Shown piece by piece: positions 1 to 44,349 of a DNA stretch of 64,000 nucleotides. The DNA comes from Balanoglossus misakiensis (lineage: Eukaryota > Animalia > Hemichordata). A program made the translations under genes and the position numbers. Every line of letters starts with the position of its first letter. The stretch's first letter is position 1. The notes below the pieces were generated by a model. The model was given only the letters and a program-made list of their open reading frames with translations, had not been told where the DNA came from and did not search any database. The DNA lies in assembly GCA_040954595.2 (NCBI GenBank), contig CM082579.2:12029834-12093833 (forward strand). Direction: 5' to 3'.

Positions 1-3000
1 AGAATGGTGATCCAGTAGTTTTACTTCCGGAGAAAACCGACTATACCATGCATCTGAGAAAAGATCCTAACAGCCAACGAGAGGGGAACCTCAATCATTA
101 CATGAAATGTAGTGGCAATGTTCAGCCAGATACAACAAGATACAGGTATGCCCGCTAAGATGGAAATTAATGAAGAACAAAATACACTCATTCAGAAACT
201 ATTAATATAATTATTTTATATCTTAGTTTCCATTAAGGGAACATACTTGCTGCCCCTTTTCCATTAATTACGTTAGATGCAAGACACCGTTTATGTTAAT
301 GTACATGTGGATATATATAGGGAATCAACGTTCAACCACACACACCTTCCATCCCGTTGTAGATACTAGAGTGAAAAAACTCGCCAAAATGAATAATCGT
401 TCTTTACCATTTATTCATTTTGGGCGAATTTTTACTCTCATATCATACAAGTGAGATGGAAGTTGTGTGTGGTTGAACGTTCATTCATTACATATACACA
501 TCCACATGTAGAATAACATAAACAGTGTCTTGTATCAAACATAATTAATGGAAAAAGGGCAGCGAGAGAGAGACTTTATCCCTTTAAACTGCAAATTACC
601 CAGCAGCAGCAACTGTATGTACTTTATAATTGTTGTTTTGGTAGAATCCTGTATTATGACCAAACTGCAAAATCCAAGATAAACAGATCTGTTTTGTTCA
701 AAACCAGTAAGGTTGCTGGTTCTGCATGAGGTTTGGTGACTGCTGACAATTTCAGACATTAAGTGATTGATAGTAATTCCCAGCATTTTCATTTAGCAAT
801 AATTATTAATATTAACAACTGATTCTTTTCTGTATTCTCAATCATATACCAGATGGACTGACGATGGTTTTGGCAATTACACCCACATCAAAGTATTAAG
901 GTAACAGATCATTTATTGCCAATTACAAAATTATAATGCATACCATGTAAGTGTTTATTTGATACATTCAGTAATGGATCATAATTACAATTTACAAGGC
1001 TGCACAACTTTGTAGATTGTATAATTAATTGAATCATTAATAATGATTACACTTACTGTAAAGTGAGGGGCATGCAGTGTCATGAAATCATATTTGTGTC
1101 TGGGAATTTTAATTTAACCAAAGGGGTGGTCATTTCAGGAGTGTGACACTCATTTATTACTAGTATTTAAAAAATAAATCCTGTCTCCTAAACCAAAACT
1201 CAAGACACTCTGTCTGACATCCATGTCTCCAAACTGGTGCATCCCCTTTGTACTTTGACTGATTGCAGTTTCATTCCTTACAAATTCACTAGGATTTATC
1301 ATAATCAAACTTGTACACAAAGTCCAAATCAGTAAGTGTACTTCCTTTAACCAACTTTGGTTTGAAAGTAAAATCATGAAAGTAATGCAAAGACCTTGCA
1401 GCTCTTGGGGCTTTAAGTAAAGCAGTTTCATATTTCACACAGTAGTCTTGTGTGACTGTGTGAGTCATTTTAGATGCCTGTGCTGGGTGTCTGTGGTAGG
1501 ACTGAGTATCATTGTAGTCCTCGCCATGTCTACATCATTTGAGTAGTTCTCACTGGCGGCACTTCAGTTACTGTAAAACACTTTATTTTCGTGAGTTGAA
1601 ATTTTCGTGATAGCGAGAGAGGCCACTGTTTCGCGAGTATTAATCTTCGCGTTGTCTTATTTCATTCACTGCATGGTTATCTTCAAAATAATTGACGTGA
1701 CTTTTTATTTTCACGCTATTTTGGCTCTCACTTTTTCGCGAAAATTTATTGCTCGCGAAAATAAAGTGTTTTACAGTATACACTAAAGAGAGTGAGAAAT
1801 GGTAAAATTAGTAGAAACTCTTCAAATTGTATTTAAAAAATAATACAGTTATTTCTATTACTATTTTTCCAGACGACCTGAATCCGAATGTAAGACACCC
1901 CGTAATTTACGAACAGCTGGTTCTATATCTGGCGGCAGACGACCAGCTACATCTCCAACAAAACAAAAATGGACGGTTGTTGACAAGGTGCTGATACCAC
2001 AAATACTTGATTTTGACTTTGTATTTGATTAGGCATTTCCCACATCTGCTTTTCAATATCTTCTGAAATTCTTTGTTGGTGTAACTATGGTGATGAGGGG
2101 ATTTTGGATTGGCTGCTGGAACACATTTGGTCTTACAGTTCTTTAAAAATCTTCACAGAATCCACCTGTATTTTTAGTTGCGTGGTTCTGACAAATCTAT
2201 AATGTATAAGCTTGACGCAGGTTAGGTTTACGATGAAATATTTCAAATAACTTTGATATTTACAGGACCAGTTTCTTATATTCAATTGAGAAATTTTCTC
2301 TGATCACTTCATTTTATATGTTAATTTTTACAGGAAGACGACGTTAATGAGAGAATCAATCAAGCTGCAAGTCATAATACTACACAAGTGCGATCGGAAA
2401 CTGTCTCAAAGATGGTAGTTGTCAATCATCTTGGTTCAGAAAAAAGCAGGCGATCAAGGTAAGCATGCATATTCTTTATGAATCTGGCCCAATCTATGGC
2501 TTCAATTTTTACCACCAACATTTTCATACACAGCTGCTACAGGGTCATGAATATGGACAGCAGTGTAACAGATTGTGGTGTAAAAATTACACAACCTTGT
2601 CTGTAGACTGGGTTGGCAATTATCAAAGATGTTATGCTATTGTGTTGATTATGTGTGCAAGTGCAGTCCTAATTCTGACATCAGTGCATATCTCTTAAAC
2701 TGCCATGTCCAAGAACACTCATCCAGGCATAATTGTTCATAAAACAATGCCCATGCACAACCCTTTGCTCGATGTCTGGCAGTTTAGGATTACATGCATC
2801 ACTTCTCACAAACTTGTAGTCACCTAACAAAGATCTGAATGACTTTATCAAAAACTCAAGCTTGACATTTAAAGGTATACGGTCACCTAAGGAAATTTAA
2901 CTACAGTTACCTTGGTTACCTGAAATCTAGCTAATCAACATAAGCAAATTGGAGGTGACCGTGTTTCCTTCATATCATTGGATAAAATCTTTTGTCAAGA

Positions 3001-6000
3001 CCTTTTGTGAAAATTGTAAGAAAATGACAATACGTCCTATTCTACACATAAGGCTGTGGAGATTAATCAATACATACATGTACTGTATCTTGGTATTCCT
3101 TACCTTAATAAGCTTTTAACTTTATATAAATCAAGATGCACAAAAAATACAAAACTGTGAACAATAGAGTCACGCTCATGTAAAATATTTGTTATTATAA
3201 AAACGTTTGTATTTTGTTTTGTAGGTCAAGATTGGGTCACAGAGTTGCAGGCAGTGTGGCCTCACATCACGTATGTTAATATTTCATCCTATTTAATCAT
3301 TTGAAATCTTTTGATACAAAGTCTGACTTCATAATGGTGGTCCTTAACATTGGGGTTCCTTGTTTCTCTGGATGAATTTTGAACTGGGACTTTTAAGTTG
3401 GACACTGTGGTAGATGTCAGTCTGTATCAGTGCATGTAGAGACATCCCTCAGAAATACTTGTATTGGGTATTGGTAACTTGTGTCAAAGCTGATATAAAA
3501 TAATCAATTCATAGAAAACTTTGTTTTTCCAGTCTGTAAAAATTATTGAGAGGTTATAAGTTGTGTGTGGAGTTGCTGTTTAAAAATGTTTTCAGAGAGG
3601 ACAATTTTCTGTTAATGGCAATTTTTTTCACTGTTTGATCGTAAGTCTTGTTGACAGTACATCCAATAATGTCATCAAAATGAAAGACACTTCATGTAAA
3701 AATCAGCGAGGGTAAACAGCAGCGTATATCTTGCATTTATTGGTGTAGCACGAAAGTTTTGCAGATAACATCCCAAATATAAAAAAAAAAACAGCCCAAA
3801 TCACACAAAAAAAAACAAACAGCAAACTTGGACTCAACTGAGTGGTTTTTGATAAAGGAATCACAACAGAGGTACTGGTCACAACAGAGGTACTCAATTA
3901 CCAGAGATTGAAATTTCTCGGACCGCTAGTTTTTACTGCAGAGCCCATGTTAAAGGCACGTAAGCTGTAACTTTTGGGATAATTTTCATAATTTTTGTTT
4001 CAAACTGCACTACCATTAGTCCATGCAGATGAAGGCAGTGAACTATACACAAGCATTATAAACCATAAATATGAGTGCATATGCAAGTTTTAACCAGATA
4101 AATAATAAAGCTTTGCCGCAAGCGATTATGGCCGCCACCGTGGGAAAATGCAAGAAACGATGAAAATGTTGCATTTCAGGTTATGAAACTTCATAAACAA
4201 AACATGATCTCATCCACTTGAGCTCGTGGAAGTAAATGTACACCACTGAGACATCAGATTTTCATTTTTCATTGCAATATTGCACTTTTTTTAAAATTGC
4301 AGGAATTTTCGTTTTTCTTTAATTTTTTGCCATTTTGTCATAATTAAGTGTTGAGCTTGATATATTATCATGAAATATCATTTATTATATTATACCAGTA
4401 TATTGATGGTGTAAATCACGCTATTTGATTGGTCGAGACACGACACGTGACCGTGATATATTAGCCATATACCACAGTCATATATCATAGCCAAAGAAAA
4501 TGCCTTTTTAAAATGTTTTATGCAAAGTTTCAATATACTGGCATAATAAAATAGCAATAAAACACCCCAAGCCATGGTATACCACTCGATTTTTACCAGT
4601 TCAACTCCATTTTAAAGTTTTAAATTAAAGTTTTAAATAATCTCATATATGAGAGCGATAGCGAGTGCGTATATGTCGTGAACTGGTCAAAATCTCGTGG
4701 TATACCATGGCTGGGGGTGTTTTATTGCTTAAATAGACATAATTAAAAGCATATATGAGATTATTTAAAACTTTAATTTTTTATCCAGTTGCAGCTTACG
4801 TGCCTTTAAAGTAAGCTTTGCAAATAAAGGGGATTAGCCCAAGGAAACAGTTTGACTCCATACACGGTAGTTTAGGTCTTCATTTTGAGAGTTCTGCCAA
4901 TGTTAACGCCCTCTACAGTTCATTCTGTGCAATATGGCAACAACAAAAATGGCAGACACTGAGCACATGTCTCCTGCTTCTGGACCTGTACATTCAAGTC
5001 TTGTACTAAAATTGATAGAAGCCAGTAATAGATTGCAGCATTTAACCACTCATTTGTTTTCTACTCTCAAAAGTCTTGACGGTTTCATGCAACTCCCCCT
5101 TAAGAAACTCTGATATTATTTGAATCGCTTGGCCAGGTTGTTTTAATATTTTATCAGAAATGTGTAAAAAGTCATTAAGACATGTGCAGTGAGTGTATAG
5201 ACATTTCATGAATGTTAAAATTAGGAAATATTACTTTTAGCATATTTGTTAGTCTACAGAATATTTATTATGTTTTCCTTTTTTCTATATTTAAGGAACT
5301 TCCAAGATTTCCTCCCTCTCTTCAATTTCTCTCATTTACTGGACCTGCCAAAATAAAAGGTAATACTTACAGCATTTGGTAGTATAGGGGAAACATGTTG
5401 TAGGCTATGATTTGGACATTTGAAAAGCATGCCTTGGGCCTCCATTTATAATAATTAAAATGCTACATGCTTGTCCTATATTATTTTTCTTCATTATTCA
5501 TGTTTTAAAAGTAGGGACTAGGTGGCATTTCAAAACCATTTTCTTGTATAGTACACTGAATGTCACAACAGCAGTCTAAAATTGTCACCAGGAACTATGA
5601 CCTCACAACTTCAAAAACTTATAAATACTGACATTTGAATATGATATGTGTTCCATTCACGTCACATCTAGACAAAGAAACCCATCCATCATGCCTGTTT
5701 GAATTTATCAGGAGTGCACAGTTGTCTAAAAATAATTGAGTGTAAATGAACATAAGTGGAATTGGTATCTCCTTGCTGTGGAAACGCAGCTGTACTGTGA
5801 CCGGTGGGGATATATTCTGATTCCCTCACGGACTGGTGACCCAAGATGACCTCACTTTGCATATCATAAGGTGCACAGCTTGACCAATCAATAACAATTT
5901 GATAGTCGAGTCATCACTGCTGCATTTTTGTATTGAAAATCAAGACTCCATATAAATCAAAACTTAAGTTGTCATCCAAACTTGGGGAACATATGCAGAC

Positions 6001-7276
6001 AGATTTTCATGACAATGTTTTATTTGAGTCACGTATAAAGTCAGATACATTTGTAGTCGCAATGATTATATAGTCACTTATAGGTCTGTGTAGCAGGACC
6101 GTCTGTTGTTTACATGAGGGTACCATGGTAACTCGTCACTTATCTTCTCGGTCATTTTCAGTATCAGTACTTCAATCTTGTGCTCAGACACCGATTTCCT
6201 GTCAATAAAAAGTCACGACCCTGACTCTTTGTATATTTCTAGTTCTTCTCTGTTTTTGAAGAGAGCTTCTCTGACTGTCTTGTGGCCAGCTGAAATTATT
6301 TCTGTCCCTCCAGCATACAGAATGTATTGAAAATGTGCTGTGATTTTTAGAGAAAACTTATTTATTTTCTGATTTAATTTCAGTGAAAGGACAGGAAGAT
6401 GCTGGGTAAGTCTAAAATTTATTTCCTTTTTACTAGTTCAAGTTGTATGAAAGTATCATTAAGTGTTATTTACTGCGCTGGTGTGACAATAATATCATGA
6501 AAGCATGCAACAAGATTACTTTAGACCAAAGAGAGAAATTGAGTTGTCTCATGCAGATGACCCCTTGACCTCCTGGCATCATTCAACAGGTTACCTGCCA
6601 TTGACAAATAAATTCCAATGTTCAATTTATGGAAATGATATCTGAAATGTTGCTGCCTGTTTCTGTTGACAGACTTCTTCCAGAAGCCCCACCACAATCA
6701 CCTAAGGAATGTCACTCGGACGGAACAAGTGTTTCCTCTGGTAGAGAGATGTCTTTCAACAGTCAGTTCGGGTCAGGTCAAAGTTCACCAGTACCATTCA
6801 ATTTGGAGGAGACCCCACGCCAAGATGAAACCCCAGGCGCAGATACAGAAGGTGGTAAACTGACCCCAATTCAGGCTCATTTCAAACTGAGAGGACAAGC
6901 TATCACACCAATAGTTCCCAAAGGAGCATATCAAGATTATAAATGCGCAGGCAAGAACAGCGATGGACAAAACCCTGTCAGTGGCGCACGTGTCGGAGAC
7001 GAAAAGGAACTAGCTGAAAATATCCAAATAGTTTGGGACACAAACATTTCAAATCTGTTGACAAACAACGATGAGAAAACGGTTGAAGTGGGTATTGAAA
7101 ATCTGTCTACATCAATTGAGGCTGACACCCTGAACAAAGAAACCTGTGAACAAGCTGAAACAAACACAGCAACTATGGGAGAAGCGAAGAAGGAAAAACA
7201 AGAATCATCTATTGCAGAACTGTCATCAGATTCCACCATGTCTCCAACAAAGGAAACAGTTAAGCAGAGTGACTAA
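1..7276 (+). CDS. Uncharacterised multi-exon protein, 3' part (5' end lies outside the window)
   Basis: Phase-compatible GT-AG exons: <1-145, 853-900, 1873-1987, 2334-2458, 3225-3270, 5296-5359, 6384-6405, 6673-7276 (TAA). The joined frame is open (NGDPVVLLPEKTDY...RWTDDGFGNYTHIKVLRRPESECKTPR...ELPRFPPSLQFLSFTGPAKIK...LLPEAPPQSPKE...KQSD*). The C-terminal part is S/E/T-rich and low complexity. No domain recognised. Confidence 0.75.
233..587. mobile_element. TTAA-flanked foldback MITE family A (Kolobok-like), copy 1
   Basis: TTAA at both ends. Near end-to-end inverted repeat (..GCTGCCCCTTTTCCATTAATTA / TAATTAATGGAAAAAGGGCAGC..). Other copies at 7337-7686, about 26110-26354 (partial) and 50324-50664. 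Confidence 0.8.
1569..1778. mobile_element. TA-flanked MITE (Tc1/mariner-type), TACTGTAAAACACTTTATTTTCG termini
   Basis: TIR TACTGTAAAACACTTTATTTTCG / CGAAAATAAAGTGTTTTACAGTA. Related elements at 9603-9802, 51061-51255 and, partially, about 31660-31830. Confidence 0.8.
3950..4809. mobile_element. TTAA-flanked MITE family B (Kolobok-like) with a nested insertion
   Basis: TTAAAGGCACGTAAGCTG...CAGCTTACGTGCCTTTAA. Colinear with the uninterrupted copy at 16819-17322 except for about 350 bp inserted at ~4385-4731. Confidence 0.8.
4385..4731. mobile_element. Hairpin-bearing non-autonomous element (possibly Crypton-like), nested in family B
   Basis: Absent from the sister copy, whose empty site is near 17240. 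Terminal hairpin GCAATAAAACACCCCAAGCCATGGTATACCAC / GTGGTATACCATGGCTGGGGGTGTTTTATTGC. Second copy in the opposite orientation at ~53315-53585. Confidence 0.7.
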
Positions 7277-12800: not shown

Positions 12801-13864
12801 GGGGGGGGGCAAGTACTCTGCCCTGGTACACCGGAGAAACCAGCGAATGAATGAAAGGTGTTGAAATAAGAAGGGGGTGAAAATTTTGTAATATAAAGAG
12901 CTCGATACTGCATTTTTGTGGACTCAAAAAGAAATTTTTAGTCCCAAAAGTTGGGGGGGGGGGCAAAAATATGTCTTAAGTAGGGGAGGGGGCGAGCGCC
13001 CCCCGCCCTCCCGGTTCCTACGCCTATGCTTTGGTTTTCCTAAGGCTGTTTTGTCCAAGTCTAACCCTCTGATGGGAGGTGGGGAATTCCCCCCCCCCCC
13101 CCCCCGCAGCCAAGTTTGGTCCCAAGTGAGGCCATCCCCTGTTTGGCAGCCCCGATCAGAATACAGCATGTCATTCTGCATAAAGAAGTGGGTGGTACGC
13201 TAAAATCGAAGGCGATTCATCAGAAAATGATGTTGGTGTGGACTCGGAAAACATTTCTGTGGTATCTCAATGCATTAGGCCAATTTTACCAATTCTGCCC
13301 ACTATTGTATTGACTTATTCATTGATTTCTTTATTGTAACACTATACTATTATACACCTCAATTACAAATTTCGAGCAGGCTCTTGGAAACAAGCTTTTT
13401 TCCTCCACAAGTAGTTGTGTAATGTTTTCAGGGGGGCATCATATTTTTTGCTTGTCAAAGGGCAGAGGTCATCATTTTTTGGTCCTGGGTGAAGGGGGGT
13501 CCGCCTGATTTTGAAAATCGATGACACAAACTTGCCGACCCTCCCCCAGCCGTAAAAAAAACTGAACAGTCCCTTATTTTTTATGAAATGTTGAACGGTT
13601 TTATGAATGGTGCGGAATTTTTAGAAATTTTTATTCTCCACAATCACTTGCATAATTATAATATTAAAACATCGCCAGGCCAGTTGGTTGAAATATGAAT
13701 GAGCTGAGACTTTCGTCCGACCACAGTGCTCTTATTTATTGATCAATGAGAGTCCCATTTACTATAGGCTAGCCCATACAAGACCCTTTTCTTCCGCGTA
13801 GCGCAGTCAGTGGCGGGAATATGGGGCAGGGGACTGGTCACACACGTGTTGCATTAATACGTAA

Positions 13865-14203
13865 ACACAACACAACACAACACAACACGACACGACACGA
13901 CACGACACAACACGACACGACACGACACGACACGACACGACACGACACGACACAACACAACACAACACAACACAACACAACACAACACAACACAGCACAG
14001 CACAACAACCCGTCGCGACACGACACAACACGACACGACACGACACAACACAACACAACACAACACAGCACAGCACAACAACCCGTCGCGACACGACACG
14101 ACACAACACAACACAACACAACACAACACAACACAACACAACACAACACAGCACAGCACAGCACAACAACCCGTCGCGACGCGATGCGACACAACACAAC
14201 ACA
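13865..14203. repeat. Compound pentanucleotide microsatellite (CACAA/CACGA/CACAG)n with a higher-order unit
   Basis: Seen directly. ACCCGTCGCGAC interrupts the array at ~14008, ~14081 and ~14169. Confidence 0.95.
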
Positions 14204-15468
14204 TGGCAGAAAAAAGCCCCAGTGTGCTTAAGGAATAGAGCTTTCATACTCAAACAAATAAAACATATTTCGTTCACAAATGAAACAGCGACACAGGACA
14301 AGAAAAATAGAGCATGGAAACCGTCCGCTATTTGCCATGTCTTGAATCATTTTTGATGTGATGTGCCCTAAGGTCTGTCCAAAGGTGTCCTCTTCACCCG
14401 TCTTTCCACATGACTGTTCGCATAAGCCATTCATGCAGGAATTTCGTCGGTGTCAGAATCAACCCGTTAGATACGTTTCATATTCACTCAAGCGAGGACT
14501 ACATAATTGACAATAATGATCAATTTTCTCGCAGAAGAAACTTTCAAGCAAACACAATATAGCTTTCTCTCCTGCTGCAGATAACCACTGAGTAAAATAC
14601 ACAAAATGCAATTGCAATATATTCATTGTTCCCTTTCATTTATTCATACTATACTATAGAATATAAAATGGTTACATTATGTCGGGGTCTCTGACTAGCT
14701 GAATTCAACCACTGGTATGATGTGGTCCTTTGAATAATGACATCTTCAAATGTTTTGACGTCAGACTAAATAACTAACTTAAAATATCACAAAACCAGGA
14801 TGTATATATACATGTACCCGAGCATATCTGTCATTTCAGAGAAAAAGTAGCCCACTTTTGACATTATTGAAGTTATTTTAGTTTCTTATATGTTACATTT
14901 GTCGTTCTGTTCACTAAATGATGCCGAGTCACCGGTTGTCGGAAATCCATTCGCGTCCTCTATATGAATACTTCTAGGACACGATTTTTGGTACTGACCA
15001 GAAAATAAATGAAGGAAGTGTTCTGAGTTGTTACCGCCGTCGTTGAACATATTTCAGTGAGCGGAATAATATTAGTAAAAGAATTAATATAAATAACCAA
15101 AATATTGGCAAAACGTGAGCGACCCTTTGACATATAACACGTCTTACTTAGGACAGGACATCCCCACTACAACATTGTGAAAACCAAGTCAAAGGTCTTG
15201 TAAATGTTGTTTTGGATAGGGTTTGGGTGATGAAATTCACATTTAACAAATTTGTGTACACTTGTGTAAAAACATACATGTAAAATGTTATAATTACTCT
15301 GCAGACATTATAATCAATCTTATGTGAATTTGTGATGTGTAAAATTAATTTCATGCTTCTAAAATGGTAGGCGCAGGCAAATCTTTCTGAGTTTTTTTTT
15401 TTTACATTTCGTGCTCTATAAATTATCATAAAACTCACTTTCAGAATATAGGCCTATGGAGATGTCCA

Positions 15469-17428
15469 TCAATCATCTGTATTTTCACCGAAAACAGGCA
15501 GACCCATGTGAACCCCTTCACCAGGATTGGCTGAGCGAACATAGTCCACTCTTTTGCCGCCAAAAGTAGGTAGACCTATAAATACACCTTTGCCAGAATT
15601 CGCAGAGCGAATAGAGGTGTACCGTTTGCCATTAAATGAGGGTAGCCCCATGAAAACCCCCTTTCCAGAATTTGGAGACCGAATTGTGGTGCCACCTCCC
15701 CGCTTGCCGTGAAATGAGGGTAAGCCCATGAACACACCTTTGCCGGGACTCGGAGAGCGAATGTTAGTAGTGTGAACCGCCAGCTCGCTGTCCGGCGCCC
15801 GCTTGCCGTTGAATGATGGCAGACCCATGAAGACTCCCTTTCCAGGGCTTGGTGATCGAATGGCTTTTTCTGGCTGTCGCGATTCTCCAACCAACGCAGT
15901 CTCTCTATCCGGGAGATTTTGCTCACTTTCCTCTTCAAATCCATCTTCACTTACGTCCCGCTGACGACGGTCAAATATTGGCATGCCGAGGAAAATGCGT
16001 CTGGTTGGTGGTGACTTCAGGAATGTCTCGTTTGTACGACCGAGGTAATAACGCATCTCGGCATCTCTCTCCTTCTCATCTTGCTCAAAACTGTCTGATT
16101 CAGTGTCCGAGTTACCACAAGGAAAACTTTTCTGCTCCCCTTCATTCGGGCCATAAAACTGAATCCCCGTCAACTGTGGTTCAACAGCTTGACTGCGGTA
16201 GCCGACAGGGTTTCCATCGGGACGTTTGATAACGGGTAAGCCGAGAAACACGGGTCTGCTGGTTCGTAGGTACCTTACATTATCAACGGGAGTATTCTGT
16301 ATGGAAGTAATGAAATCCGAGAATCACTGGCTCTCCTTTAACAAGTTTCAGTGCATGGTGACATGTCGCCCTTAGCTTCAAGTTCAGTAAAATTCCTAAG
16401 TTGTCGCCATGCTTTCTATAAAAACGCATGTATGTTCACTAAAAAGTGTGCGCAATTTTCAAATTGACCCTGACATCTATTATACAAATGCAATAAAAAT
16501 CCCAAATTTTTGGTATGACATGTACAATGTAGAATGCTATGATTTCATTTTGCTCCAGTAACTCTATCGACAGTTTTGTATCATCTACGTTCTTGTTCTA
16601 CTCGGGATAGCTTTGTGACATGTTCATTGTAATTTTTTTTGACAAATGAAAATCGGGACTTTAAATTTAGTTTCAACAAGAACAAAAAACTGCTGTTTAC
16701 TTCAAAAGGGCTATATTGAAAAATCTAATACTGAGAAACTCTTCGTATTTTACAGCGTAGAACTAGAACCACTGCACACTCAGAAAAAATAGCCCGAAGT
16801 GGGAGTCTAACTGCAGCTTTAAAGGCACATAAGCTGCAACTTTTGGGATAATTATCATATTTTTTCCAAATTGTATTACCATTAAGCCATGCAGATGTAG
16901 GCACTGAACTACACACAAGCATTATAAACCCTAAATATGAGTGCATATGCAAGTTTTAACCGGATAAATTATAAAGCTTTGCGGCAAAGGGAAATGGCCG
17001 CCACCGTGGGAAAATGCAAATACAGTGAAATCGTTGCATTTCCCACTTTGAAAGTCCATTAACAAAGCATGATCTCATCCACTAGAACTCATTGAAGTAA
17101 ATATACTCCACTTTACACTTTCATGTTTCATTGCAATATTGCACTTCTTTAAAAATTGCAGTAATTTTCGAATTTCTTTAATTTTTGGCCATTTTGTCAT
17201 AAATAAGTGTTGATCTTGATATACTATCATGAAATATCATTCTACAGACATAATCAAAAGCATATACAGGATTATTTAAAACTTATTTTGTTTTTATCCA
17301 GTTGCAGCTAATGTGCCTTTAAAGCGAAATAGTAAAACTACACTTACCTTTTGCCTGTTATTCTGTGCAATACAGGGACTCCAAGAAAGGGACGTTAACA
17401 CAGATAACAGCAGCAGATTTAGCTTCAT
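15469..17428 (-). CDS. Secreted neuropeptide precursor (302 aa) with repeated IRS(P/A)xxGKGVF(M/I)GLP(S/T)Fx-amide peptides
   Basis: Exon 1 is 17428-17348 (MKLNLLLLSVLTSLSWSPCIAQNNRQK, hydrophobic signal peptide, donor AAG|GTAAGT). Exon 2 is 16296-15469 (acceptor TTCCATACAG, phase 0). It has acidic spacers, KR/RR sites and four GKR amidation/cleavage signals (SFN-GKR, SFH-GKR, SFN-GKR, TFG-GKR). Confidence 0.9.
16819..17322. mobile_element. TTAA-flanked MITE family B in the neuropeptide intron
   Basis: TTAAAGGCACATAAGCTGCAAC...GTTGCAGCTAATGTGCCTTTAA; homologous to 3950-4809. Confidence 0.85.
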
Positions 17429-17504
17429 TCTAGCAGACAATCCTCAGTGGTTGGGAACGAAGCGAGTTTTCACTAGTAACCAGCCAGCCAGCCAACCAAC
17501 AAGA

Positions 17505-17512
17505 CTATATAG
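17505..17512 (-). promoter_or_regulatory. Candidate TATA box of the neuropeptide gene
   Basis: CTATATAG lies about 80 nt upstream of the ATG at 17428, a spacing compatible with a ~50-nt 5' UTR. Confidence 0.45.
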
Positions 17513-19041
17513 CTTCCAAACACCGATTGCGAATCCAACAAAGTTACAATGCTTTGCATAGACTCTGTGTTAAGCACCGCAGTGTCTGAAAAGGGAACTA
17601 ATATACGACTCGGAGCCGAGGAAAGTTTGGCACGATTTGGACACAATCTGAGGAATCACTGAGAGTTCAGTGAATTCCAACAAGTAGGGATGTGGCGATG
17701 ATTGTACACAGTTAGCGTCTACATTGATTCACTGCGGGTAATTACACACAACGCCCCGTTTTTATTCTCAGTCAAAGATCAAACAATCACGCGCGCAAAC
17801 AATTTGAATGCATCGCTCATTAACTGCCCACGTTATTAATGTTGGGAAATTGCCAGGCGTTCTTCATAATGGTTTAATTTCATCCGGCAACTTGTAGGGC
17901 GTGAAATTAATACGGTTATACATGCTGTCGTGAGAAACCTTACATCTCATGAGAAATTGCATCAGATGCGCAAGGCAATCGGAGTTCCCCTGATACTAGC
18001 TGCAGATAAGCCTACATATGTGCAACAATTAAAATTAAACCCATTCAACATTAAATTCATAATTGGAATACAGCAACTGCAATTTTTATTTTCCTAGAAA
18101 TTATTTTTTGGCGTGGGTGTTTTATTGTACGAAAAAGAAAATTTTAATCGAAAATAATTCTTATTTTGTGTCTTTCCAAGCAGTTAGCTGTATGGTTACT
18201 GTATTGGCAAACTGTAGGAAAACTTATTAAGGAGGTACGTAGGATCTGTTCACCTATCACAAATATACAATCGTGACAAAATTCACCAAGTGAAATTTTA
18301 AATGGCAATATTTTCAATTTATAGTGGACCCACCTAAAAGCAACCACGTCTGCCCCCCTGTACTTCGCCCGTGAGTAAAAAGTGTACTATTTTTAGTGAT
18401 GCCGCCATCTTTCGAGTTCGATTCTACTGTTCTCATAAACCTAAACATTGATGCAAATGACAAACGCTTGAGAGAAGTCAGATATCGTGGTCGACGACTA
18501 CACTATGGAAATTCATCAAATGTGCCACTTGTAATAGTATTTGACAATATTGTTCTTATGTTACCTCCTGTTTGTTGCACCTACAATTGAAACTGAAAGG
18601 TGAAATTATTAAAAGTTAGATGTTTTATTGCCGACGATCGTTTTTATTCACATGTGTTATTTCGTGTGTACAAATATTACGTCAAACCCAAATGTTCTGC
18701 AAAATTTGCGTTCAACGCATTCAAATAGTGGACTGCCTTCGCTTCCTAAACACAGAACTTTGAATAGGACGTTTACAGGCATTTCAAATTGCGATTGTGG
18801 GCGGGTCTGTCACCTAACTACATTTTCAAGAAATGCGATGAATTTGTCGCTGTGCAGAGATATTTGTGATCATATGTTGTGAGCATATGTGAAATCGGAT
18901 AAGCAAAATGATATATTTTTGGGCAATTTCAAAATAATTTTTTTTCATTTGACCTTTGTTTTGTCCCTTCTTTTCACCCAATTTGATGTCTTTTCCCGAT
19001 CTGCGATATAAACTATATGGTTACCGCCATCTTGTCTGCTG

Positions 19042-24051: not shown

Positions 24052-27000
24052 ATGGCTGATGCCGAAGCTAACTACTTCGACTCGCTGAGGCAAGCAGATT
24101 TCTCTGACACAAATGGAGTCAAGACATGTTTCGACCACTTCGACAAAGACAGGTAAATGTCTGATGTGTAACATCCTGTTTTTTATGACACGCTGCGTTT
24201 CGGTATAACCATGGCAACGGGGATCTGAACGCTACCGGTTCAGTGCTTCACTGCTTGGCGTGCGGTGCATTGACATTGTACATGTCAGCCGATTTGAAAT
24301 GTAGTGATAGAGTACATTAGCTTAAATGTAAATACAGTCTGACTTTGGGTTGGGATACGCAGAGTACCAAAATCCGCGCAGGGCTGTGCCAAAATTTCAG
24401 AAACTAAACAGATACAGTAACAAGCACTTTGGAAACAGAAAAGTACGTTTGTTGATAAAATTACGTAATCGCCCAGGTAATGACATTGTATGCAGAATTC
24501 ACAGTTTTACATGGTCTAGGTACATGTACATGTTCCACGGTCCTTAGTACTTTGTGTCTCATAAACTGCCTTTCAACCTGTAAACCCTTTTGTTGACTGT
24601 GGCGAAAGCATAATTCAGAGTATGAGACAAATAACTATGTGATAGTTACATGTAAAATTAATGAATAAAACACTAAGTATGATATTGGCAGAAAAGGAGG
24701 TGCTTTATTATTTCTGTAAATTTCTAAATGGACAGAGACATTTTCTCATGCCATGCAGGAGTATCTCCATTTACATATGGTGTTATTGTACTTTAGTTGA
24801 CCATCAAAATGTGTAAATACTAAGTGACACCATTATGGTACTTTCAAAGAGGTTTGATTTCCTTACAGTTGAAAATACAGCCACAGCTGAAATTTCACTC
24901 AATCTGCACTGCCAGGAGAACCAAAGTTTTGAATGAGTTTTTCTTAGCAGAGTAGACACATTCATTGGAATGAATGGACCATTTACCAAAGTATGTGTGT
25001 GAAAAAGAACCGAAATTTCACGGTTGAGTTGAGAAATAGCAGACTCTTTATGATCATTTCTATCATTCAGCAAAGAATATTTCCACTTATGACAGATTAG
25101 TGGGGTGAGTCTAGATGTTCAGAAAAGAGCATTCAGGTGGGGATTCTAACTGTGTTATGTTGGAATCGGCCAGCAACAAAGATGAACAATGCAACGTCTT
25201 CTGAAATCAGTAATGATGCTAGAGCAAGTATGTGATTTCCATGCTAATCAGAACTGTTCTAGCGGTAAAATATTGAGCTGTGCCCAGAGATTCATTAAAC
25301 TACAATGTATTGCAGCCCCAACATGCCAAATATAATTTTAGTATTTTGAAATCTAAACTTCCATTTTTCAAGAAAATATACAGTATTTATGAGATTTTAT
25401 TTCCCCTAAAACAAACCTAAAATTTGGTAGACGCAACTGTAAAGTAATTTGACAGACAAAACTTTAATTTTGATGGACTAAACATTCTGATTTCGACAGT
25501 AAAACTTTAATTTTAGTTTGCACAACCTCGTATTTCAGAGAACAAAACTTCAAGACGTAGCTCACATCAGTAAGGGTAGTGTACGGCATATGAAAATCTA
25601 TGCATCAATGTGTGGCCAGGTTTTTCAATACCTGTGATCTAGATGGAAAGTGTAATTTTGTAACGCATTTTTTCATGCCATTTCAGAGATGGTCTTCTAG
25701 ATGTCAATGAGTTTAGCACGTTGTGTAAGAAGTTATTCGTCCATAACAAGGGCAGTGATTACCAGTTGACTCGCCAACAAGTTGAAGAATTGATGGAACT
25801 CCTAGATTATGATAAGGTGAGTTCTGATTGGTAGAAATTCACTGATCAACATACCGGTACAACTGGCATGGAGGTCCTTCGAACTGATGGAACAACCAAT
25901 ATGTTATCAGTATACATGTATAATAGTGGCAGGTTGGTAGTTTTGATGTTAAAGGTATAAGGTCACTTATGCAAATTTAGCTACAGTAACCATGGTAAAT
26001 TGAGATCTAGCCAAGCACAGATTTTCAGTGGGTGGCACACACAAAAAAAGAGCACCACTATATCTGTTCTTTAGAACACTCAAATACACCATGTAAAATG
26101 AATAATCAGTGAAAGTGAATGAACGTTCAACCACACACAACTTCCATCCCACTTGTAGACATGAGAGTGAAAAACTCGCCAAAATAAATAATCAGTCTCT
26201 ACCATTTATTCATTTTTGGCGAGTTTTTACTCTCATATCATTCAAGCAGGATGGAAGTTGTGTGATTGAACTTTGATTCACTATATATCCACATGTAGAA
26301 TAACATAAACGGTGAATGGAAAACGGCAGCGAGAGAGAAACTTTGTCCCTTTAAACAGAGAGGCACAAAATGGCATATTTGAAGTCTCCAGAGGGAAACA
26401 GTTTTGCATTATCACAGCAGCTACATTATTTTCCCCAGTGTTGATATTTGGCCACAATGAAACGGGATGTCTATGGTACGTTTGTTTCTCCCGTGTCTAA
26501 GTCTTTCCAAGGCTAAAATCACAGAGAGTGAGGCGAACGATTTTCTGTTTTTTTTTAACACATACATGTATACTACTATGCAAATGTAAAAAGCTGTATT
26601 TTAGAACATCTCGGCTCCTACAAATTTGTACTGTTTTTCCGTACTGTTTTTGGCAAAATCCAGGGGGGGGGGGGTCACTTAAATTTTGAAGTCCAAAAGG
26701 GGGGGGGGGGGGTCATCTGTTTTTTTTAAACGTTTAGGGGGGGGGGGGGTCACATACTTTTGCCACCGAACTTTTACTTTTGAGTCTACAAAATTGCAGT
26801 TTCGCGCCCTTTATTTTACAAAATTTTCTAACACCCACCCCCTACATTCTCCGCCATATTTCATTTATTGCTGGTTTGACTAGTGTACCAAGGCAGAGTG
26901 CTTGCCACCCCAACCCCACTGATGATATTATTTAACAAAGTAAATACATAAAGGAGAATAATCGTTTAAACCATTTCCCAAAACTTATACTTTCGCGCGG

Positions 27001-30000
27001 CATCTTCTATATACTAGAAGTTTTATAAATGATGTCATGACGAAGATGACGTCAAATCTTCTAACTTTGAGTGGAGTGGCAAAAAGTAAAATTGGTCCTC
27101 CCAAACATTGAGATAATTTGCTTTTGAGTTCATAAAATTGCAGTTTCGCGCCCTTTATTTTACACCCCCTCCCACACCCACCCCCTCCATTCTTCGCCAC
27201 ATAACATTTATTTGCTGGTTTGTCTAGTGCACCAGGCCGGGCAGACTTCTTGCCACCCAACCCCCGATGCTTACTTTGAGTGGAGTGCCAAAATTAAAAT
27301 TTGTCCGGCCTAACATTGAGTTAATTTGCTTTTGAGTTCATTAAATTGCAACTTTGAGCACTGTATTTTACAAAATTTTCTTATGTGGGAGGGGGACACC
27401 CCCTCCCACGCCACTTTTCTTGTTTTACCGATTCTAGCAACTATTGTATTGACTTGTCATTTTCTTTTTGATCATAGATTTCTTTATTGCATGTGAGGCT
27501 ACACACTTAGGGGTTACGCGATGTCATTTATCCCTGGCTTAGTAGCCTATCCCAGTCTAGTTGTCCCACCTCAAGTTGAGATATAAATGCCTGCCTTGGG
27601 CCCACCCTACACAAAGCAAGCCCAGCAATCCCATAGAATGGTCAAAGTAAGGCTGAGCCCCCTGGTGCAAACAGCAAGCCAATGACAATGTGCAAAAGAT
27701 TCAGTCTGTAGTGAAATGTGTCTTGAATATCTAACCTGCAGAACATTTTAGTGTCTGGTCAAAGGTCAGACTCTAACAATACAATGTTAAGACCTGAAAT
27801 TTACTATTCTCACCTACATGTAGCCTGTGCAGATCCGAAATGTCTGACTTGCAAACCTTTCACTGTGTCCTCTTATCTGTGGTTAAAATGCTCATTAATT
27901 GGAAATGCCAAAATTTATTTAACGTAACTGTTCCAGCGGTATAAAAATACTGTTGCAAGTTTCAGATAGAATATGTCAGGTTGATTGATGTCATATTCCC
28001 AGGCTGGCTATTTTCAATTTTGATAACAATGACATATTATGGGTGGGTGAGGGACACAATGAGGTCATTCAATCCATTGTTTCTAATCAGAGTGACAGAA
28101 TTATAATTAGACTGAGCGCTTTATGTGTGTACATTTTATCTTTTTTTTTTTTAAATGAAAGTTTTTCACCAAATATGATAACATAGTGATACATGTATAA
28201 TTTACTTCATTGTTCTTTGTCGTTTTAGGATGGCAAGATAAATTTGACAGAATTCAAGATCTGTTGGAAGTACTGGTTAAGACAGGTAAGTTGAAATGAT
28301 TTATGTGTTCGCATAACAGCAGAGATTGTTTATTTGGCAGGTTGCAATGTTTGTGTTAAGAAATACTTTGGTCATGTATACTTTGTCTCTGACAGGGTAC
28401 TTGTGAGAGGTAAATTATAGAATACAAACCAATCTGTTTATTTGTTGTACTCTGAACACATCAAAATTAATTTGTATATGTCATTGCTCTTCACAGTGGT
28501 CCCAGTCAGATGAAGGGTGGAACAGTTTACAACTGATTTTATTACCTGTTATGACATGGAAAATATTTTTTACAGTTGCTTTAAATTTCATTGACCAATA
28601 ACACTCAAAGACTAATTTTTGGAGAAAAGATTTTGTATTTAAAAACCCGCTGCTAGTACATGTGAAAACATTTAATGAACAGTAAATCTAATGTACAATT
28701 TTATGCAATTGTCAGATGAAAACAAATAATTGGTATTTATGGAGATATGTCCTCAATTTCAAAACCACATTGATTCCACGTTCACAGCTAATTGACTTTT
28801 GCAGTGAACAGATTCAAAATAAAGTTCACATTACTTTCTATTAAACATGAAGATAAATATTAAGCAATCACTGACTCTATGCTTACATGTATCATTAGTT
28901 AGGCTGCATGTTTGCAATAACATGTATGTGATTCTTACTGTCAGATCACCAATCCGGGATAATGATGTTTTCATATGATTCCATAAATGATTTATTGGGA
29001 ATGTTGATGTAAAACAGGAATAACATCTAATCTGGTGATCAGTCAGTATTCTCTTTGTATACAATCAACACCAACTGATGTGCTGTTAAAGGGGGAGTTC
29101 ACCAAGGGTGATCTTTGCATATTTGTCTTCTAGGAATTCGTGTAACCAATAGAAGTCTTTTTTTACTAACCACAAGTCACCAATTTTCACCAAATTCAAA
29201 GAAAAAACTTACCATAATACAAACCTTTCAAACAATTTTCCTTGCAGACTAAATTTGTTCATTTTCTGTGCCATGGTGTCCAAAATTTGATTTCATAGAA
29301 ACTTATCACATGTAGCTAGATAAAAAAGGTTGCTTACAAAGAAAGATACATGTACATAATTTCACAAGGTTTATGATCATTGACCTCTGGTCAAAATGTC
29401 AGATACAAATATGTGATATGTTATTTCTTTGCATGAAACTATACATGTTGCTTGAAAAAAGTCTAGTTTGGATTCGTATTTCATTATCTACATGTATAGT
29501 TCCTACAGATAAAATTACAAGAAAATGTCATAAAAAATATCTGAATTATGATGCCATTTTGCATGTATTGCTATACTTAAATAATAACACATGATAGCGA
29601 GGGCAATATCACGATTTGAAGCCTGCACGAGGGATGGTGATCTCTGACTAAAATATTGATGATGCCCGAGCCGCAGGCGAGGGTATCATCAATATTGTGG
29701 TCAGAGATCACCAGCCCGAGAGCAGGCTTCAAATCGTGATGTTGCCCGAGCATCATGTGTTATTAATTTTATTACGCCGAACATTTGAACGTACATACAA
29801 GGCAGGCATAGAAGAACGTAGACGCGCGTCCATATGTCGTACGTTGCTGAGAATGTAAAATGTCTCGATCTCCCAAGATTTATACGATACCTACTTCGAA
29901 CTTAGATTATTTTGAAAATACTGCACTGTTGGTTGCGATTTTGTTGTATTTACTGTCCGTTTGTGGTAAAATATCGTCCAGTTGAACAGGTGTTAATCCT

Positions 30001-33000
30001 GTTTGTCGCTTTGAAGCCATAGATGCGGGAGTTGACTGATCGTGGAGGAAGCCATTGAACGACAGTTTGGAACGCGCAGAAGTCGCGCGCAGAACATCAA
30101 AACAACCCAGCGGGCAATATCAGCGCACGCGACAGGGCTTTATCAACTCTAGCCATGTTATATCACTTTTTTTTCTATATCACGTGAGCGCGTCTCAGCC
30201 AATCACGAATATGGTATAATACGTGAGGTGTAATAAATATTAATTGCCAATGGAAATGCACCATTGAAATTATTAGGGTTAGGTTAAAGTTTGACAGTGT
30301 TATTTCTTGAGTAAGTTTAAGTCTGAATGTAAAGTTAACTTGTTCTGTTTTTAATAATTTTTTGACTGCAGGTCTTATCGCCGGTCACTGCTCTCATAAT
30401 TGTGGATGTTCAGAATGATTTCATTGATGGGTCATTAGCATTAAAAGAATGTGCAGCTGGCCAAGACGGTGCTGATGTCATCCCAGTCATCAATCGCTTA
30501 TTGGAAGAAGCACACTTTGATGTTGTCGTGTACACCAAAGATTGGCATCCAGCGGACCACATCTCTTTCTTTGAAAATGTCAAACTCAGGCAGATACATC
30601 CATCATCACCGGTAAGATTTTTGTAGTGGGGCCTGTATCACCACTTTACATGTGGTAGTGGTTCAAGACAATCTTGTTGAAATTGTCATTTTAAGGTCCC
30701 ATTTGGTCATGTATATGTACACCGTGGAACCTTATGGAATTGGTTGCGTCTGTACATACATATGTATATGTATGTATGTATGTACAGTCGAACGCCGATT
30801 ATCCGAACACCGATTATCCGGATTTCGGATTATCCGAACGCTTTGGTATAGTCCCTAAACATTAAATTAGCCATGCCAAGCACCTGTTTTCTCGGCGGTC
30901 TGTGACATTTCCGCAGGTAAACTGACAATTCGTACGGTTTTCTTTGGTCAGTTCTAATTGTTTCTGTTGTAAAGGGCGGTGGGACGTGTTAAGAACGTCT
31001 TTATCATTGAATATTTCAATCACTTGGACCCTGTAATTAGCTTACCTTGAAAGATATTGATTATTGGACCTGATTTGATGTCTTACTGTCAGTCATTCAG
31101 TTCCGAGACTGAAATTAGAGTCAAATGCATGCAAAGCTATCCGACCACCCGGGGCAAATATTATGTCCACGGATAAAACTGCCAATGCTTCTGACCATTA
31201 GTTTCATTCATTATGCATGACTTCTCCCAATAAACAACCGTAAAATCTTACATATTAATCTGAATCCCAGTCCTGGTTGTGCAGAGGTTTAAACCCTCAT
31301 GTCACAGGCCTCCAGAAACTTTTCACTTGGCATAGGGAAAGTGACTTTACAATCTCACTGGTCTTTAAGAAAAAAACTGCACATTTTTTCATATCCATAT
31401 CATGATATGTGTGCACAGGCTAAGTTTGCAACCTTGTAGATAAAGATCGTAAGGTCACCCATTGTATTTGGCAGACAGCACAAGTAGATCAGTCCTGGTG
31501 TAAAAGACAAACTCGTACGTTTAGTACAGGGTAAAGGTCACTTGCTTGTCGGACAAATGACTTATTTTTCACTTGCCCAGGCTAAAAATACACTTGCCAC
31601 ATGTGTCAGGGGACAGGAATTATTGAGGCCTGTCAGGTGATAAATGCAACAAACAGTCATACTGTGAAACACATTATTTTCGTGAGCAATACATTTTAGT
31701 GAAATACGCGAGAGCCAAAATAGCGTGAAAATATAAAGTCGCGTAAATTTTTGTTTAAGTTAACGATGCAGTGAATGAAATAAGAGAACGCGAAAATTAA
31801 TACTCGCGAAACAGTGGCCTCTCTCGACATCCGCTTTTTAAAAGCATTTATGGATGTGATGGAACCCCATCCAGTTAATTCCATTGAAAAAATGAGGATG
31901 TATTCTAGACAAATAAAAATCATGCGAATAATTGCATTTTGCAGGTTAGTGCAGAAGATGCCAAGTTGTTAGATACAGTGCACTTTGTAGGACCTGATCA
32001 AACAGTACCAGTAATGGAACAGATATTATGGCCAACACATTGTGTACAGGGTACAACGGGTGCAGAACTGCATGAAAAATTGAAGGTAAGTCCTATCATT
32101 AAAGGGTGTGATGGATGCCTATCATTGAAACAATGATGTGGTGACAGTCTTTGTCAGTCACTTAACATACATGTACATATCATACATGGTCAACATCTTG
32201 ACGTGGTTACGTCATCTTGATAAACTTGGTCTTTGGGGTCAGAGGTAGCGCAGGTAGGAAATATTAAATTATGCAGTTAAGTACATGATCTCTGAGTCTG
32301 AATAGGAGAAAATTAAAGTGCAGATTTGCACTGGTTTCTATCATTGGCTGTGTTCCAAACGCGCACTCTTGCTCATCCAAAATATTACTTTGCCATCATT
32401 TTCTGTGGATTTTTGACTCTTGACTCCAATTTAAGTCAATTTTTGATTGGAAAGCATGTTTCCCTACAGATTCCGCACCATTTTTGAGGTACATGTATCG
32501 TGATAAAAACCTTCAAAGTTTCACAAAACGACACAGTTTATATTTGCCTTTGCAAAAATCATTTGGTTTTGGACAGATAATAACGTAATCCATTCTTGGG
32601 GCTCTGAACAGGTATCTGTTCAATTCTGAAACTTTGGAAAATTCGTGGCGGAATTGTAATAGGAGCTGAGACATTTTAAGGAATATCGCGCCTCGATCAT
32701 TTTAGTTGTTTACGCAGAGTTCTGTGCAGAGTTTAAAAAGTTAAATTTTATTTCCAGTGTTTTTCAAACAAAGATGTAGAGTAGTGCTGTGAGGTTATTT
32801 TAATACATACGATGTATTTATTAAATTTGGGACTGAAATTTACACGCGTTTGCATTACTTTTGGTTGCTATAGCAACTGAACTCTTATGCAGCCTATCCT
32901 GGGCTGTTGAAGACGCCCGAAATCCATGTTTAACTTTCTGTGTCTCAACAATTTGCGTGGTGACCCCCTATTTTTTTGCCTTTAATTGATTTGATATATT

Positions 33001-42973: not shown

Positions 42974-44349
42974 AGCGAATCAATCTTCACAGTGTTACAT
43001 TAAAAACGTACCATTACAGGTCATTCCCTCCTTTTCTGGTGTTCGCTTGTAAATGTCACACAGCGGTACTCGGCGTTTGCGGGGAAAAGATGAAAGACTC
43101 GTTCGATGTGTACAATTCCCATGTCAAACAGTCGTTAATTTCCATTTCCGTGTAGCCATCTCTGTGTCTTCTTGCGTTGAACGGTAGCAAACGTTATGAT
43201 GGACGTTCATTGGTTCTGATTGACATTCTCAATATTTGTCATAGATGATGAAGAGTCCAAGATTAAGAGAAACTTAATCATCGCAGCTCAACACCTTGCC
43301 TCAGCTGACAAACTGCGATCTTGTGGAGAGATGAAGCCTTACAACATTCGCCATTTAAAGCCGTATTTAAATCGGCCTACCCAGCTGTGCTTCTCTATTG
43401 AGTTGACCTCATTATCATGTGGAATATATGAACGTACATTTTTAATGATGCGTCTCTGTGTTATCCCAGAGAAATCACTCACATCAAAGGATCTTGCACT
43501 TTGTCACCGTTATCGGAATTCGCGTAATTGTCCATTAGGACCTAATTACTTTCGCGGTTGATTGCTTATATTCGAATGTACACATTGTGATTCAATTATA
43601 TATGCATATACATCTGTTGTGAACTCATAAGACAATGCCTTCGTCACACAGATATGACGTACATTCATATACTCAGGAGAACCGTTGTTACAGGATGGAA
43701 TACATGTATAATACATGTTCTAGGCCTATATTGAACGAACAGTGACATCACCCATGTCACCTAGACGCGTACAGACAGGCGCTTCGAATTCTCTTCGATC
43801 TTTTCACACCTGCTTGTATATAAGCTATGCCGCTGCAATACGTGCTGTAACATATATGGAACTCGTTTTGACCACAGAGAGTAATATGTTTTGACAGCTC
43901 AGCTTGTCAACAATCGTACAGAACGAACATGTATAGGCCTACTTCAACCATATCAACTGTTCAGAACAATTGATAACGCATGACTGCACAATGGCGACGC
44001 AATTAGGCACCAAATCGCCTAGCAACAGGATCAGCACTTCGAATGACTGAGCCACAGTGTCAGCCCTAAACAGCACCTCCATGTCGTTCTCTAAAATATC
44101 GGCCTCAATACATGAATATTAGGCCTACACATCGTTCTTTAAAAAATCGACCCAATACAGAATTCAACTATATATGAAGTTTCGACGAATAGCGCAAAAT
44201 CAGACTCAGCCCGTCTTTGGCCCAGAAGACCTTAAACGCCCAGTCACGGTGTCAATACACGTAAAAACGTGCACTGCACATAGCATAAGGATGTATTGCA
44301 CATTTTAAATAATATATAGTTGGTGCACGTGAAAAAAGATATCGCAAAT

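What the first reader, a model, noticed from the sequence alone, without database searches (positions are those of the whole stretch)
15469..17428. Unassigned multi-copy neuropeptide precursor encoding a GVFMGLPSFx-amide family
Seen: the ORF track starts at an internal GTG and misses an upstream exon (17428-17348) that encodes a signal peptide and splices in phase 0, giving a 302-aa prepropeptide. It holds seven related segments: TSRPVFLGLPVI-KR, SPPTRRIFLGMPIFD-RR, AIRSPSPGKGVFMGLPSFN-GKR, NIRSPSPGKGVFMGLPSFH-GKR, TIRSPNSGKGVFMGLPSFN-GKR, SIRSANSGKGVFIGLPTFG-GKR and VRSANPGEGVHMGLPVFGENTDD-stop. Established: Gly-Lys-Arg is the PC1/2 + carboxypeptidase E + PAM amidation signal, and repeated peptides with acidic spacers are typical neuropeptide precursor architecture. 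Inference: I recognise no family with this consensus. It partly resembles the tachykinin FxGL core and the LPF-amide ends of echinoderm L-type SALMFamide and kisspeptin peptides, but the C-terminal register matches neither. It may be a new or highly diverged signalling system with an orphan GPCR.
Basis: partly seen in the sequence, partly recalled or inferred. Interest (0 to 1): 0.88.

Follow-up and report, generated by a model that had tools for sequence, protein, structure and literature searches.

The report
Unassigned acorn-worm repeat-peptide precursor gene
A two-part gene in an acorn-worm genome encodes seven related short peptides whose repeated sequence has been kept by selection; they are predicted to be cut out and secreted as nerve signals, and they fit none of the peptide families compared here.

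Summary
Exon 1 (17428-17348) and exon 2 (16296-15469) join across a 1,051-nt GT-AG phase-0 intron to give 302 aa with a signal-like start and seven related motifs, four ending in Gly-Lys-Arg. Exon 1 is the only good candidate of 118. Units 3-6 differ at 0.76 of synonymous but 0.12 of non-synonymous sites, so the peptides are under purifying selection. The neighbouring RECQL5 places the host among acorn worms, nearest Ptychodera. No homolog was found in three protein searches and no paper prints the motifs. Tachykinin, SALMFamide/kisspeptin, bombesin and pedal peptide/orcokinin each fail a defining motif; resemblances are weak against shuffles. Papers read report these ligands as not yet found in hemichordates, so the gene is a testable candidate. 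Expression, processing and receptor are untested. Verdict: a real, unassigned neuropeptide-type precursor, of moderate interest because orphan precursors are common in such surveys.

The parts
17348..17428 (-). Exon 1: start codon and predicted signal peptide (27 codons; predicted cleavage after Ala21)
   Evidence: donor matches consensus 9 of 9
16297..17347 (-). Phase-0 GT-AG intron, 1,051 nt; holds an interspersed repeat (16854-17241) also found at 3988-4382
   Evidence: not confirmed by RNA
15469..16296 (-). Exon 2: all seven peptide units, acidic spacers and the stop codon
16228..16263 (-). Unit 1: predicted 12-residue non-amidated peptide, between a single Arg and KR
   Evidence: prediction
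15970..16014 (-). Unit 2: predicted non-amidated peptide, 15 residues, or 9 if its internal RR is cut
   Evidence: prediction
15808..15855 (-). Unit 3: predicted amidated 16-mer ending Phe-Asn-amide, [M+H]+ 1620.82
   Evidence: prediction
15709..15756 (-). Unit 4: predicted amidated 16-mer ending Phe-His-amide, [M+H]+ 1643.84
   Evidence: prediction
15631..15678 (-). Unit 5: predicted amidated 16-mer ending Phe-Asn-amide, [M+H]+ 1637.81
   Evidence: prediction
15559..15606 (-). Unit 6: predicted amidated 16-mer ending Phe-Gly-amide, [M+H]+ 1550.83
   Evidence: prediction
15472..15534 (-). Unit 7: 21-residue terminal copy; the three codons at the GKR position are each one base from a Gly, Lys and Arg codon, suggesting a decayed amidation site
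   Evidence: codons shown; decay inferred
14639..14644 (-). First AATAAA after the stop, a possible polyadenylation signal
   Evidence: unverified

Best explanation
This is an intact two-exon acorn-worm gene with seven related peptide repeats, likely a neuropeptide precursor that is predicted to be secreted and cut into four amidated 16-residue peptides plus three non-amidated ones, which would act together on a G-protein-coupled receptor. Shown: gene anatomy, repeats, basic sites, selection, host group. Inferred from textbook processing (own knowledge): the signal peptide routes the protein to secretory vesicles; prohormone convertases cut at GKR, KR, RR and at the single Arg of the conserved [ILV]-R-[ST] site; carboxypeptidase trims; PAM turns the last Gly into an amide. 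Predicted active consensus: S-[PA]-x-[PS]-G-K-G-V-F-[MI]-G-L-P-[ST]-F-[NHG]-amide, with the hydrophobic C-terminal half as the likely receptor-binding part. The family cannot be assigned from sequence: it is either restricted to acorn worms or an old family changed beyond motif recognition.
For: Gene model. Pooled pS 0.76 against pN 0.12 over the 6 pairs of units 3-6, with 74 of 107 differences at third codon positions. 6 of 6 Arg sites that precede units 1 and 3-7 have a basic residue at -4, -6 or -8, against 4 of the other 10 single Arg residues (rule recalled). Spacers are acidic: 13 D/E in 63 and 11 in 34 residues. Seven of the ten Atlas rows shown are neuropeptide precursors, at 0.76-0.84, a weak lead only. 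Acorn worms express PC2 and PAM and their neuropeptide list is called incomplete (passages). SALMFamide and kisspeptin genes have the same signal-exon plus peptide-exon layout.
Against: No homolog in three protein searches, although Ptychodera, Glandiceps and Saccoglossus proteins are in the collection and a control says a seven-unit relative at 50% peptide identity would pass in 20 of 20 trials (spacer lengths were kept, which flatters the control). A conserved neuropeptide should have shown up if annotated. This is softened by annotation gaps: Saccoglossus GnRH and CRH carry XR (non-coding) accessions and two precursors are listed by EST clone only. Three of the six monobasic sites take their upstream basic residue from the preceding KR, so they are not independent. 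The Atlas recognition value (1060) is low and the repeat region alone ranked bacterial clusters first. Nothing shows neural expression.
Confidence: 0.8

Rival explanations
1. Within the neuropeptide reading: it is a diverged pedal peptide/orcokinin (PP/OK) precursor, a family reported as not identified in hemichordates.
For: Multi-copy 16-17-residue peptides; starfish copies carry G-K-G-A-F-x-x-L and one carries G-V-F-H-P-L; crinoid copies end F-N-GKR and align to unit 3 without gaps at six identical positions; the 2017 paper allows for orthologs hidden by divergence.
Against: The core Asp-X-Leu motif and N-terminal Phe are absent from all seven units. The starfish and crinoid alignments put the Leu in different registers. 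Shuffles reached the observed score in 307 and 474 of 5,000 trials for peptides picked by eye.
Confidence: 0.15
2. Within the neuropeptide reading: it is the hemichordate SALMFamide/kisspeptin-type precursor, acting on clade-3 kisspeptin-type receptors, plausibly as a muscle relaxant.
For: Same two-exon, phase-0 layout as echinoderm SALMFamide genes; starfish L-type peptides end H-x-G-L-P-F-amide and unit 7 reads H-M-G-L-P-V-F; Asn-Ser in units 5 and 6; Saccoglossus has clade 3.1 and 3.2 receptors without known ligands; an amphioxus kisspeptin ends in His-amide. Best shuffle result of the five peptides: 124 of 5,000.
Against: No unit ends in L-x-F-amide or F-x-F-amide: there is an extra residue before and after the Phe. 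Kisspeptin KPP1 genes use a phase-1 intron. Phase 0 is the commonest phase (own knowledge). 124 of 5,000 does not survive ten comparisons of hand-picked peptides. The IRSPxP likeness to a sea-urchin KP2 peptide is expected about once in a panel of that size.
Confidence: 0.15
3. Within the neuropeptide reading: it is the missing ambulacrarian tachykinin, with the F-x-G-L core extended at the C-terminus.
For: F-x-G-[LM] in 6 of 7 units; tachykinin receptors exist in Saccoglossus without a known ligand, and starfish ligands are also unknown; the two top Atlas rows are arthropod tachykinin precursors at 0.84.
Against: The amide lies four residues after the Leu instead of one; no tachykinin Pfam hit at E up to 10; Atlas scores under 0.9 occur for shuffled proteins and several other precursor types scored alike.
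Confidence: 0.07
4. It is the ortholog of a Saccoglossus precursor already listed in print, such as 'VIamide (VIG, IVG)', so only the species is new.
For: Unit 1 ends Pro-Val-Ile; VIamide is listed by EST clone only, so protein searches could miss it.
Against: Unit 1 has no Gly and the four amidated units end otherwise. The VIamide sequence was not seen: the source paper is not held and the 2026 preprint's Table 7 is closed.
Confidence: 0.1
5. It is a non-neural secreted peptide precursor (skin, mucus, pheromone or defence peptides) restricted to one lineage.
For: No annotated relative in three other acorn worms; skin peptides use the same processing signals (own knowledge).
Against: Strong purifying selection across old repeats fits a fixed receptor better than a defence peptide; the peptides are not cationic or Cys-rich.
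Confidence: 0.1
6. It is a pseudogene or a chance open frame.
For: No homologs were found.
Against: Intact 275-codon exon, perfect donor, pN/pS about 0.16, shuffles 0 of 10,000.
Confidence: 0.02

Closest known systems
Echinoderm L- and F-type SALMFamide precursors (ligands of kisspeptin-type receptors ArKPR6/7)
   Same: Signal-peptide exon, phase-0 intron, one exon with about seven amidated copies; G-L-P and a near-terminal Phe as in starfish ArS1.3 and ArS1.7.
   Different: No L-x-F-amide or F-x-F-amide end; peptides are 16 residues and are predicted to start at a single Arg, not mostly at dibasic sites.
Pedal peptide/orcokinin precursors (starfish SMP and ArPPLN1, crinoid PPLN)
   Same: Multi-copy peptides of 16-17 residues, Gly-rich N-half, G-[AV]-F-x-x-L, Phe near the end; crinoid copies end F-N-GKR.
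   Different: Asp-X-Leu core and N-terminal Phe are missing; the two alignments disagree in register.
Tachykinin precursors
   Same: F-x-G-L core; multi-copy amidated layout as in protostomes.
   Different: Need F-x-G-L-M-amide or F-x-G-x-R-amide (abstract); here the core is followed by P-x-F-x-amide.
Echinoderm bombesin-type precursor
   Same: Unit 2 contains R-I-F and G-x-P, loosely like the R-I-F-G-P-x-x-amide consensus.
   Different: Bombesin genes have one peptide next to the signal peptide, split by a phase-1 intron; here seven copies lie in one exon.
Xenacoelomorph multi-copy peptides (SFxNamide, PxFVamide)
   Same: Short P-x-F or S-F-x ending with an amide (names only).
   Different: None of six longer motifs occurs in the supplements searched.

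Membership tests
Multi-copy neuropeptide precursor (general) | N-terminal signal peptide | tested here: met
   Basic n-region, hydrophobic core (best 9-residue mean 2.5), -3,-1 site at Ala21; SignalP not run
Multi-copy neuropeptide precursor (general) | Repeated peptides flanked by basic sites, with Gly for amidation | tested here: met
   7 units, 4 with GKR
Multi-copy neuropeptide precursor (general) | Neural expression and processed peptides | not testable with these tools
   No RNA run listed; no mass spectrometry
SALMFamide | C-terminal L-x-F-amide or F-x-F-amide | tested here: not met
   0 of 7 units
SALMFamide | Phase-0 intron between signal exon and peptide exon | tested here: met
   weak, as phase 0 is common
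SALMFamide / kisspeptin | Activates kisspeptin-type receptors | not testable with these tools
   Needs a cell assay
Kisspeptin (KPP1 and vertebrate type) | Phase-1 intron after the signal exon; two core Asn; Phe/Trp 3-4 residues before the amide | tested here: not met
   Intron is phase 0; no Asn at those positions
Pedal peptide/orcokinin | Asp-X-Leu core | tested here: not met
   0 of 7 units
Pedal peptide/orcokinin | Aromatic residue near the C-terminus | tested here: met
   Phe next to last in units 2-6 and at the same place in unit 7
Pedal peptide/orcokinin | Phe near the N-terminus | tested here: not met
   First Phe is at position 9 of 16 in units 3-6
Tachykinin | F-x-G-L-M-amide or F-x-G-x-R-amide end | tested here: not met
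Bombesin-type | Single peptide next to the signal peptide, split by a phase-1 intron | tested here: not met
Saccoglossus VIamide (VIG/IVG) | Sequence likeness to the listed precursor | not testable with these tools
   Sequence not in the files seen
Any of the above | Conserved gene neighbourhood or linkage group | not testable with these tools
   No genome is held for the window and no echinoderm or hemichordate genomes can be searched

The most novel reading that the evidence does not exclude
These peptides are the first acorn-worm ligands of an ancient signalling family that the papers read report as unidentified in hemichordates (pedal peptide/orcokinin or SALMFamide/kisspeptin are the best leads, tachykinin next), remodelled so far that the family's signature motif is lost. 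They would bridge echinoderm and chordate peptide evolution and give a defined mix for finding the receptor.
Probability: 0.35. Interest if true: 0.75.

Novelty: new variant of a known kind. Interest (0 to 1): 0.5.

Why it matters
Acorn worms are the sister group of echinoderms and a key outgroup to chordates. The papers read list receptors there without ligands (kisspeptin/SALMFamide as of 2026; tachykinin as of 2019; GnIH/NPFF and QRFP as of 2014) and a peptide family not found there (pedal peptide/orcokinin as of 2017). A well-formed precursor with four predicted amidated 16-mers of known mass makes a receptor screen and a peptidomics check directly possible. If it pairs with one of these receptors it fills a named gap; if with none, it adds a lineage-specific signal, which is more ordinary.

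Tried and rejected
Protein searches with exon 2 or its repeat region: 0 of 2,524 candidates (151-482 aa) and 0 of 3,842 (232-2,000 aa) at E up to 10; 0 at E up to 0.001 among 1.84 billion representatives. Proteins under 151 aa were covered only. PDB: 0 at E up to 10. Metagenome contigs: 0 of 143 pattern matches confirmed. Pfam: the ribosomal S27a hit (23.1 bits, over its 22.3 cut-off) was rejected because no single stretch passes and the region has no Cys. RNA: no RNA holder was listed for 15300-17700, which is no evidence either way. No whole genome is held, so paralogs and receptors could not be sought; within the window no second copy exists (3 stray motif matches on other frames plus one in an off-frame of exon 1). 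Papers: 'GLPSF' with 'neuropeptide' gave 0; six motifs gave 1 unrelated proteomics paper (listing only). Supplements: no precursor hit in PMC6188537 (1 file), PMC11521371 (12 of 13 files) or PMC9793003 (7 files; only FNGKR, in pedal peptides); in PMC8557429 the places shown were all receptors, but 5 of 7 MGLP and 5 of 7 FIGLP places were not shown. Four look-ups of earlier findings returned nothing. Galanin/allatostatin-A, neuromedin U and SIFamide were considered from recall only; no Pfam hit supports them. No fold or complex was predicted: the precursor is not expected to fold and no receptor sequence was at hand. A broad statistical panel of known peptides was not built; only five were compared.

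Full report
Observation. The minus strand from 17428 reads an ATG and 27 codons, then a donor (AAG|GTAAGT), a 1,051-nt intron ending in a pyrimidine-rich CAG, and an 828-nt exon to the stop at 15469; the joined frame gives 302 aa. The seven segments are as quoted. Four end in Gly-Lys-Arg, two at dibasic sites without Gly, one at the stop. Shuffling exon 2 never gave four GKR or even two core motifs in 10,000 trials (the pattern was taken from this sequence). The intron carries an interspersed repeat, as expected of non-coding DNA. No RNA run was listed, so the junction is unconfirmed.

Is it a working gene? Units 3-6 were compared codon by codon over 21 codons: 41 identical, 57 synonymous and 28 non-synonymous codon pairs over six pairs of units; pooled pS 0.76, pN 0.12. 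The repeats are old enough for silent sites to be near saturation while the peptide is kept. Tandem Repeats Finder does not report them as DNA repeats. In unit 7 the three codons at the GKR position are each one base away from Gly, Lys and Arg codons, so the same register, F-x-GKR, likely held for all five C-terminal units.

Host and neighbourhood. A RECQL5 exon in the window is 85% identical to Ptychodera flava, 81% to Glandiceps talaboti and 75% to Saccoglossus kowalevskii. In an 11-row tree (10 of the 120 listed hits, chosen for taxon spread) it falls in a starred group with those three (99/96) and pairs with Ptychodera at 84/88, unstarred. The host is an enteropneust, probably near the ptychoderids. 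Other neighbours are an EF-hand plus isochorismatase gene and a sulfotransferase (142 of 393 frames of 45 aa or more below 46000 were scanned). None helps assign the peptide.

Likely processing. Each of units 1 and 3-7 is preceded by [ILV]-Arg-[ST]. All six Arg residues have a basic residue at -4, -6 or -8, the recalled rule for monobasic cleavage, against 4 of the 10 other single Arg residues; three of the six owe it to the preceding KR. PC2 and PAM are expressed in Saccoglossus neurons (passages). Secretion, cutting, amidation and a GPCR target are inferred, not shown.

Relatives. None was found. A control shows the library search could see them: units 3-4 score E 9e-17 against units 5-7 at that library size, and simulated seven-unit relatives at 50% peptide identity passed in 20 of 20 trials, at 40% in 16 of 20; but units 3-7 did not detect units 1-2, and one core alone scored E 11. 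So no annotated multi-copy ortholog of moderate likeness is in the collection, although three acorn-worm proteomes are represented. This counts against a well-conserved family. It is softened by annotation gaps for acorn-worm neuropeptides and by a 2026 preprint calling the list incomplete. The Atlas put neuropeptide precursors in seven of ten rows shown at 0.76-0.84, a weak lead; with the repeats alone bacterial clusters led.

Comparison with known families. SALMFamide genes share the two-exon phase-0 layout and some starfish peptides end in G-L-P-F-amide, but the defining L-x-F or F-x-F amide is absent. Kisspeptin KPP1 genes use phase 1. Pedal peptide/orcokinin peptides share length, a G-[AV]-F-x-x-L stretch in starfish and an F-N-GKR end in crinoids, but lack of the Asp-X-Leu core fails membership, and the two alignments disagree. 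Tachykinin and bombesin fail on terminal motif and gene structure. Five published peptides, chosen by eye as best look-alikes, were scored against units 3-7: shuffles matched or beat them in 307, 474, 124, 1,153 and 1,773 of 5,000 trials (starfish PP/OK, crinoid PP/OK, L-SALMFamide, KP2 tail, bombesin); against units 1-2 in 336 to 3,454. None stands after allowing for selection. The units scored began after the single Arg, so the I-R of the KP2 likeness was left out; one search puts such 5-of-6 matches at about 1.2 expected in 3,500 residues. Working like a neuropeptide precursor is well supported; membership in any named family is not.

What the literature says, and what I saw. Passages: PMC6188537, PMC9400282 (section 7; supplement 4 whole; 12 of 20 supplements searched), PMC6880623, PMC12002301, PMC13020265, PMC10508912 (S1 Table with cells cut at 400 characters), PMC13554239 (27, nothing relevant), bioRxiv 10.64898/2026.04.13.718258 (its Table 7 of Saccoglossus peptides is closed and may bear on novelty), PMC11521371, PMC3594158, PMC4062910 (section 15), PMC5818035, PMC9793003, PMC5656890 (section 33); PMC8557429 supplement search only. 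The two 2013 PNAS surveys, the main sources of Saccoglossus precursors, were not read (one not held; the other not tried). 'Not in print' rests only.

Verdict. A real gene under selection, best read as an unassigned acorn-worm neuropeptide precursor (0.8). About 0.35 that it is the disguised member of a family reported missing in hemichordates; about 0.1 that it is already listed under another name. Orphan multi-copy precursors are common in such surveys, so surprise is moderate, but the predicted peptides make open ligand questions testable. Interest 0.5.

Noticed in passing
window 57395-58066 and 58902-59573 (+): A long RECQL5 exon occurs twice, 1,507 bp apart and about 99% identical, with a second 97% duplication at 58125 and 60651. 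Either a recent tandem duplication or two haplotypes assembled in series.
   Followed up: no
window 46164-63780 (+): RECQL5 gene with its C-terminal SRI domain; used to place the host among acorn worms.
   Followed up: yes
window 25664-35049 (+): Exons with an EF-hand and an isochorismatase domain, probably one nicotinamidase-like gene (the name is recalled).
   Followed up: partly
window 41660-42979 (-): Single long frame with a hydrophobic N-terminal stretch and a sulfotransferase domain.
   Followed up: partly
window 6605-7276 (+): 223-codon acidic, Ser/Thr-rich open frame with no Pfam match, probably an exon of an unidentified gene.
   Followed up: no
window about 16038-16052 (-): Inside the precursor, residues 110-113 lie between two single Arg residues that both fit the monobasic rule and end in Gly, so a tiny amidated peptide is possible; the spacer also holds one unpaired Cys.
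   Followed up: no
window 17430-17432 (-): A TAG lies one base before the start codon; F-type SALMFamide genes have an intron just before the start codon. The pyrimidine tract is weak and no transcript is at hand.
   Followed up: no
window 13864-14168: (AACAC)n satellite of about 62 copies downstream of the gene; it creates long spurious open frames on both strands.
   Followed up: no
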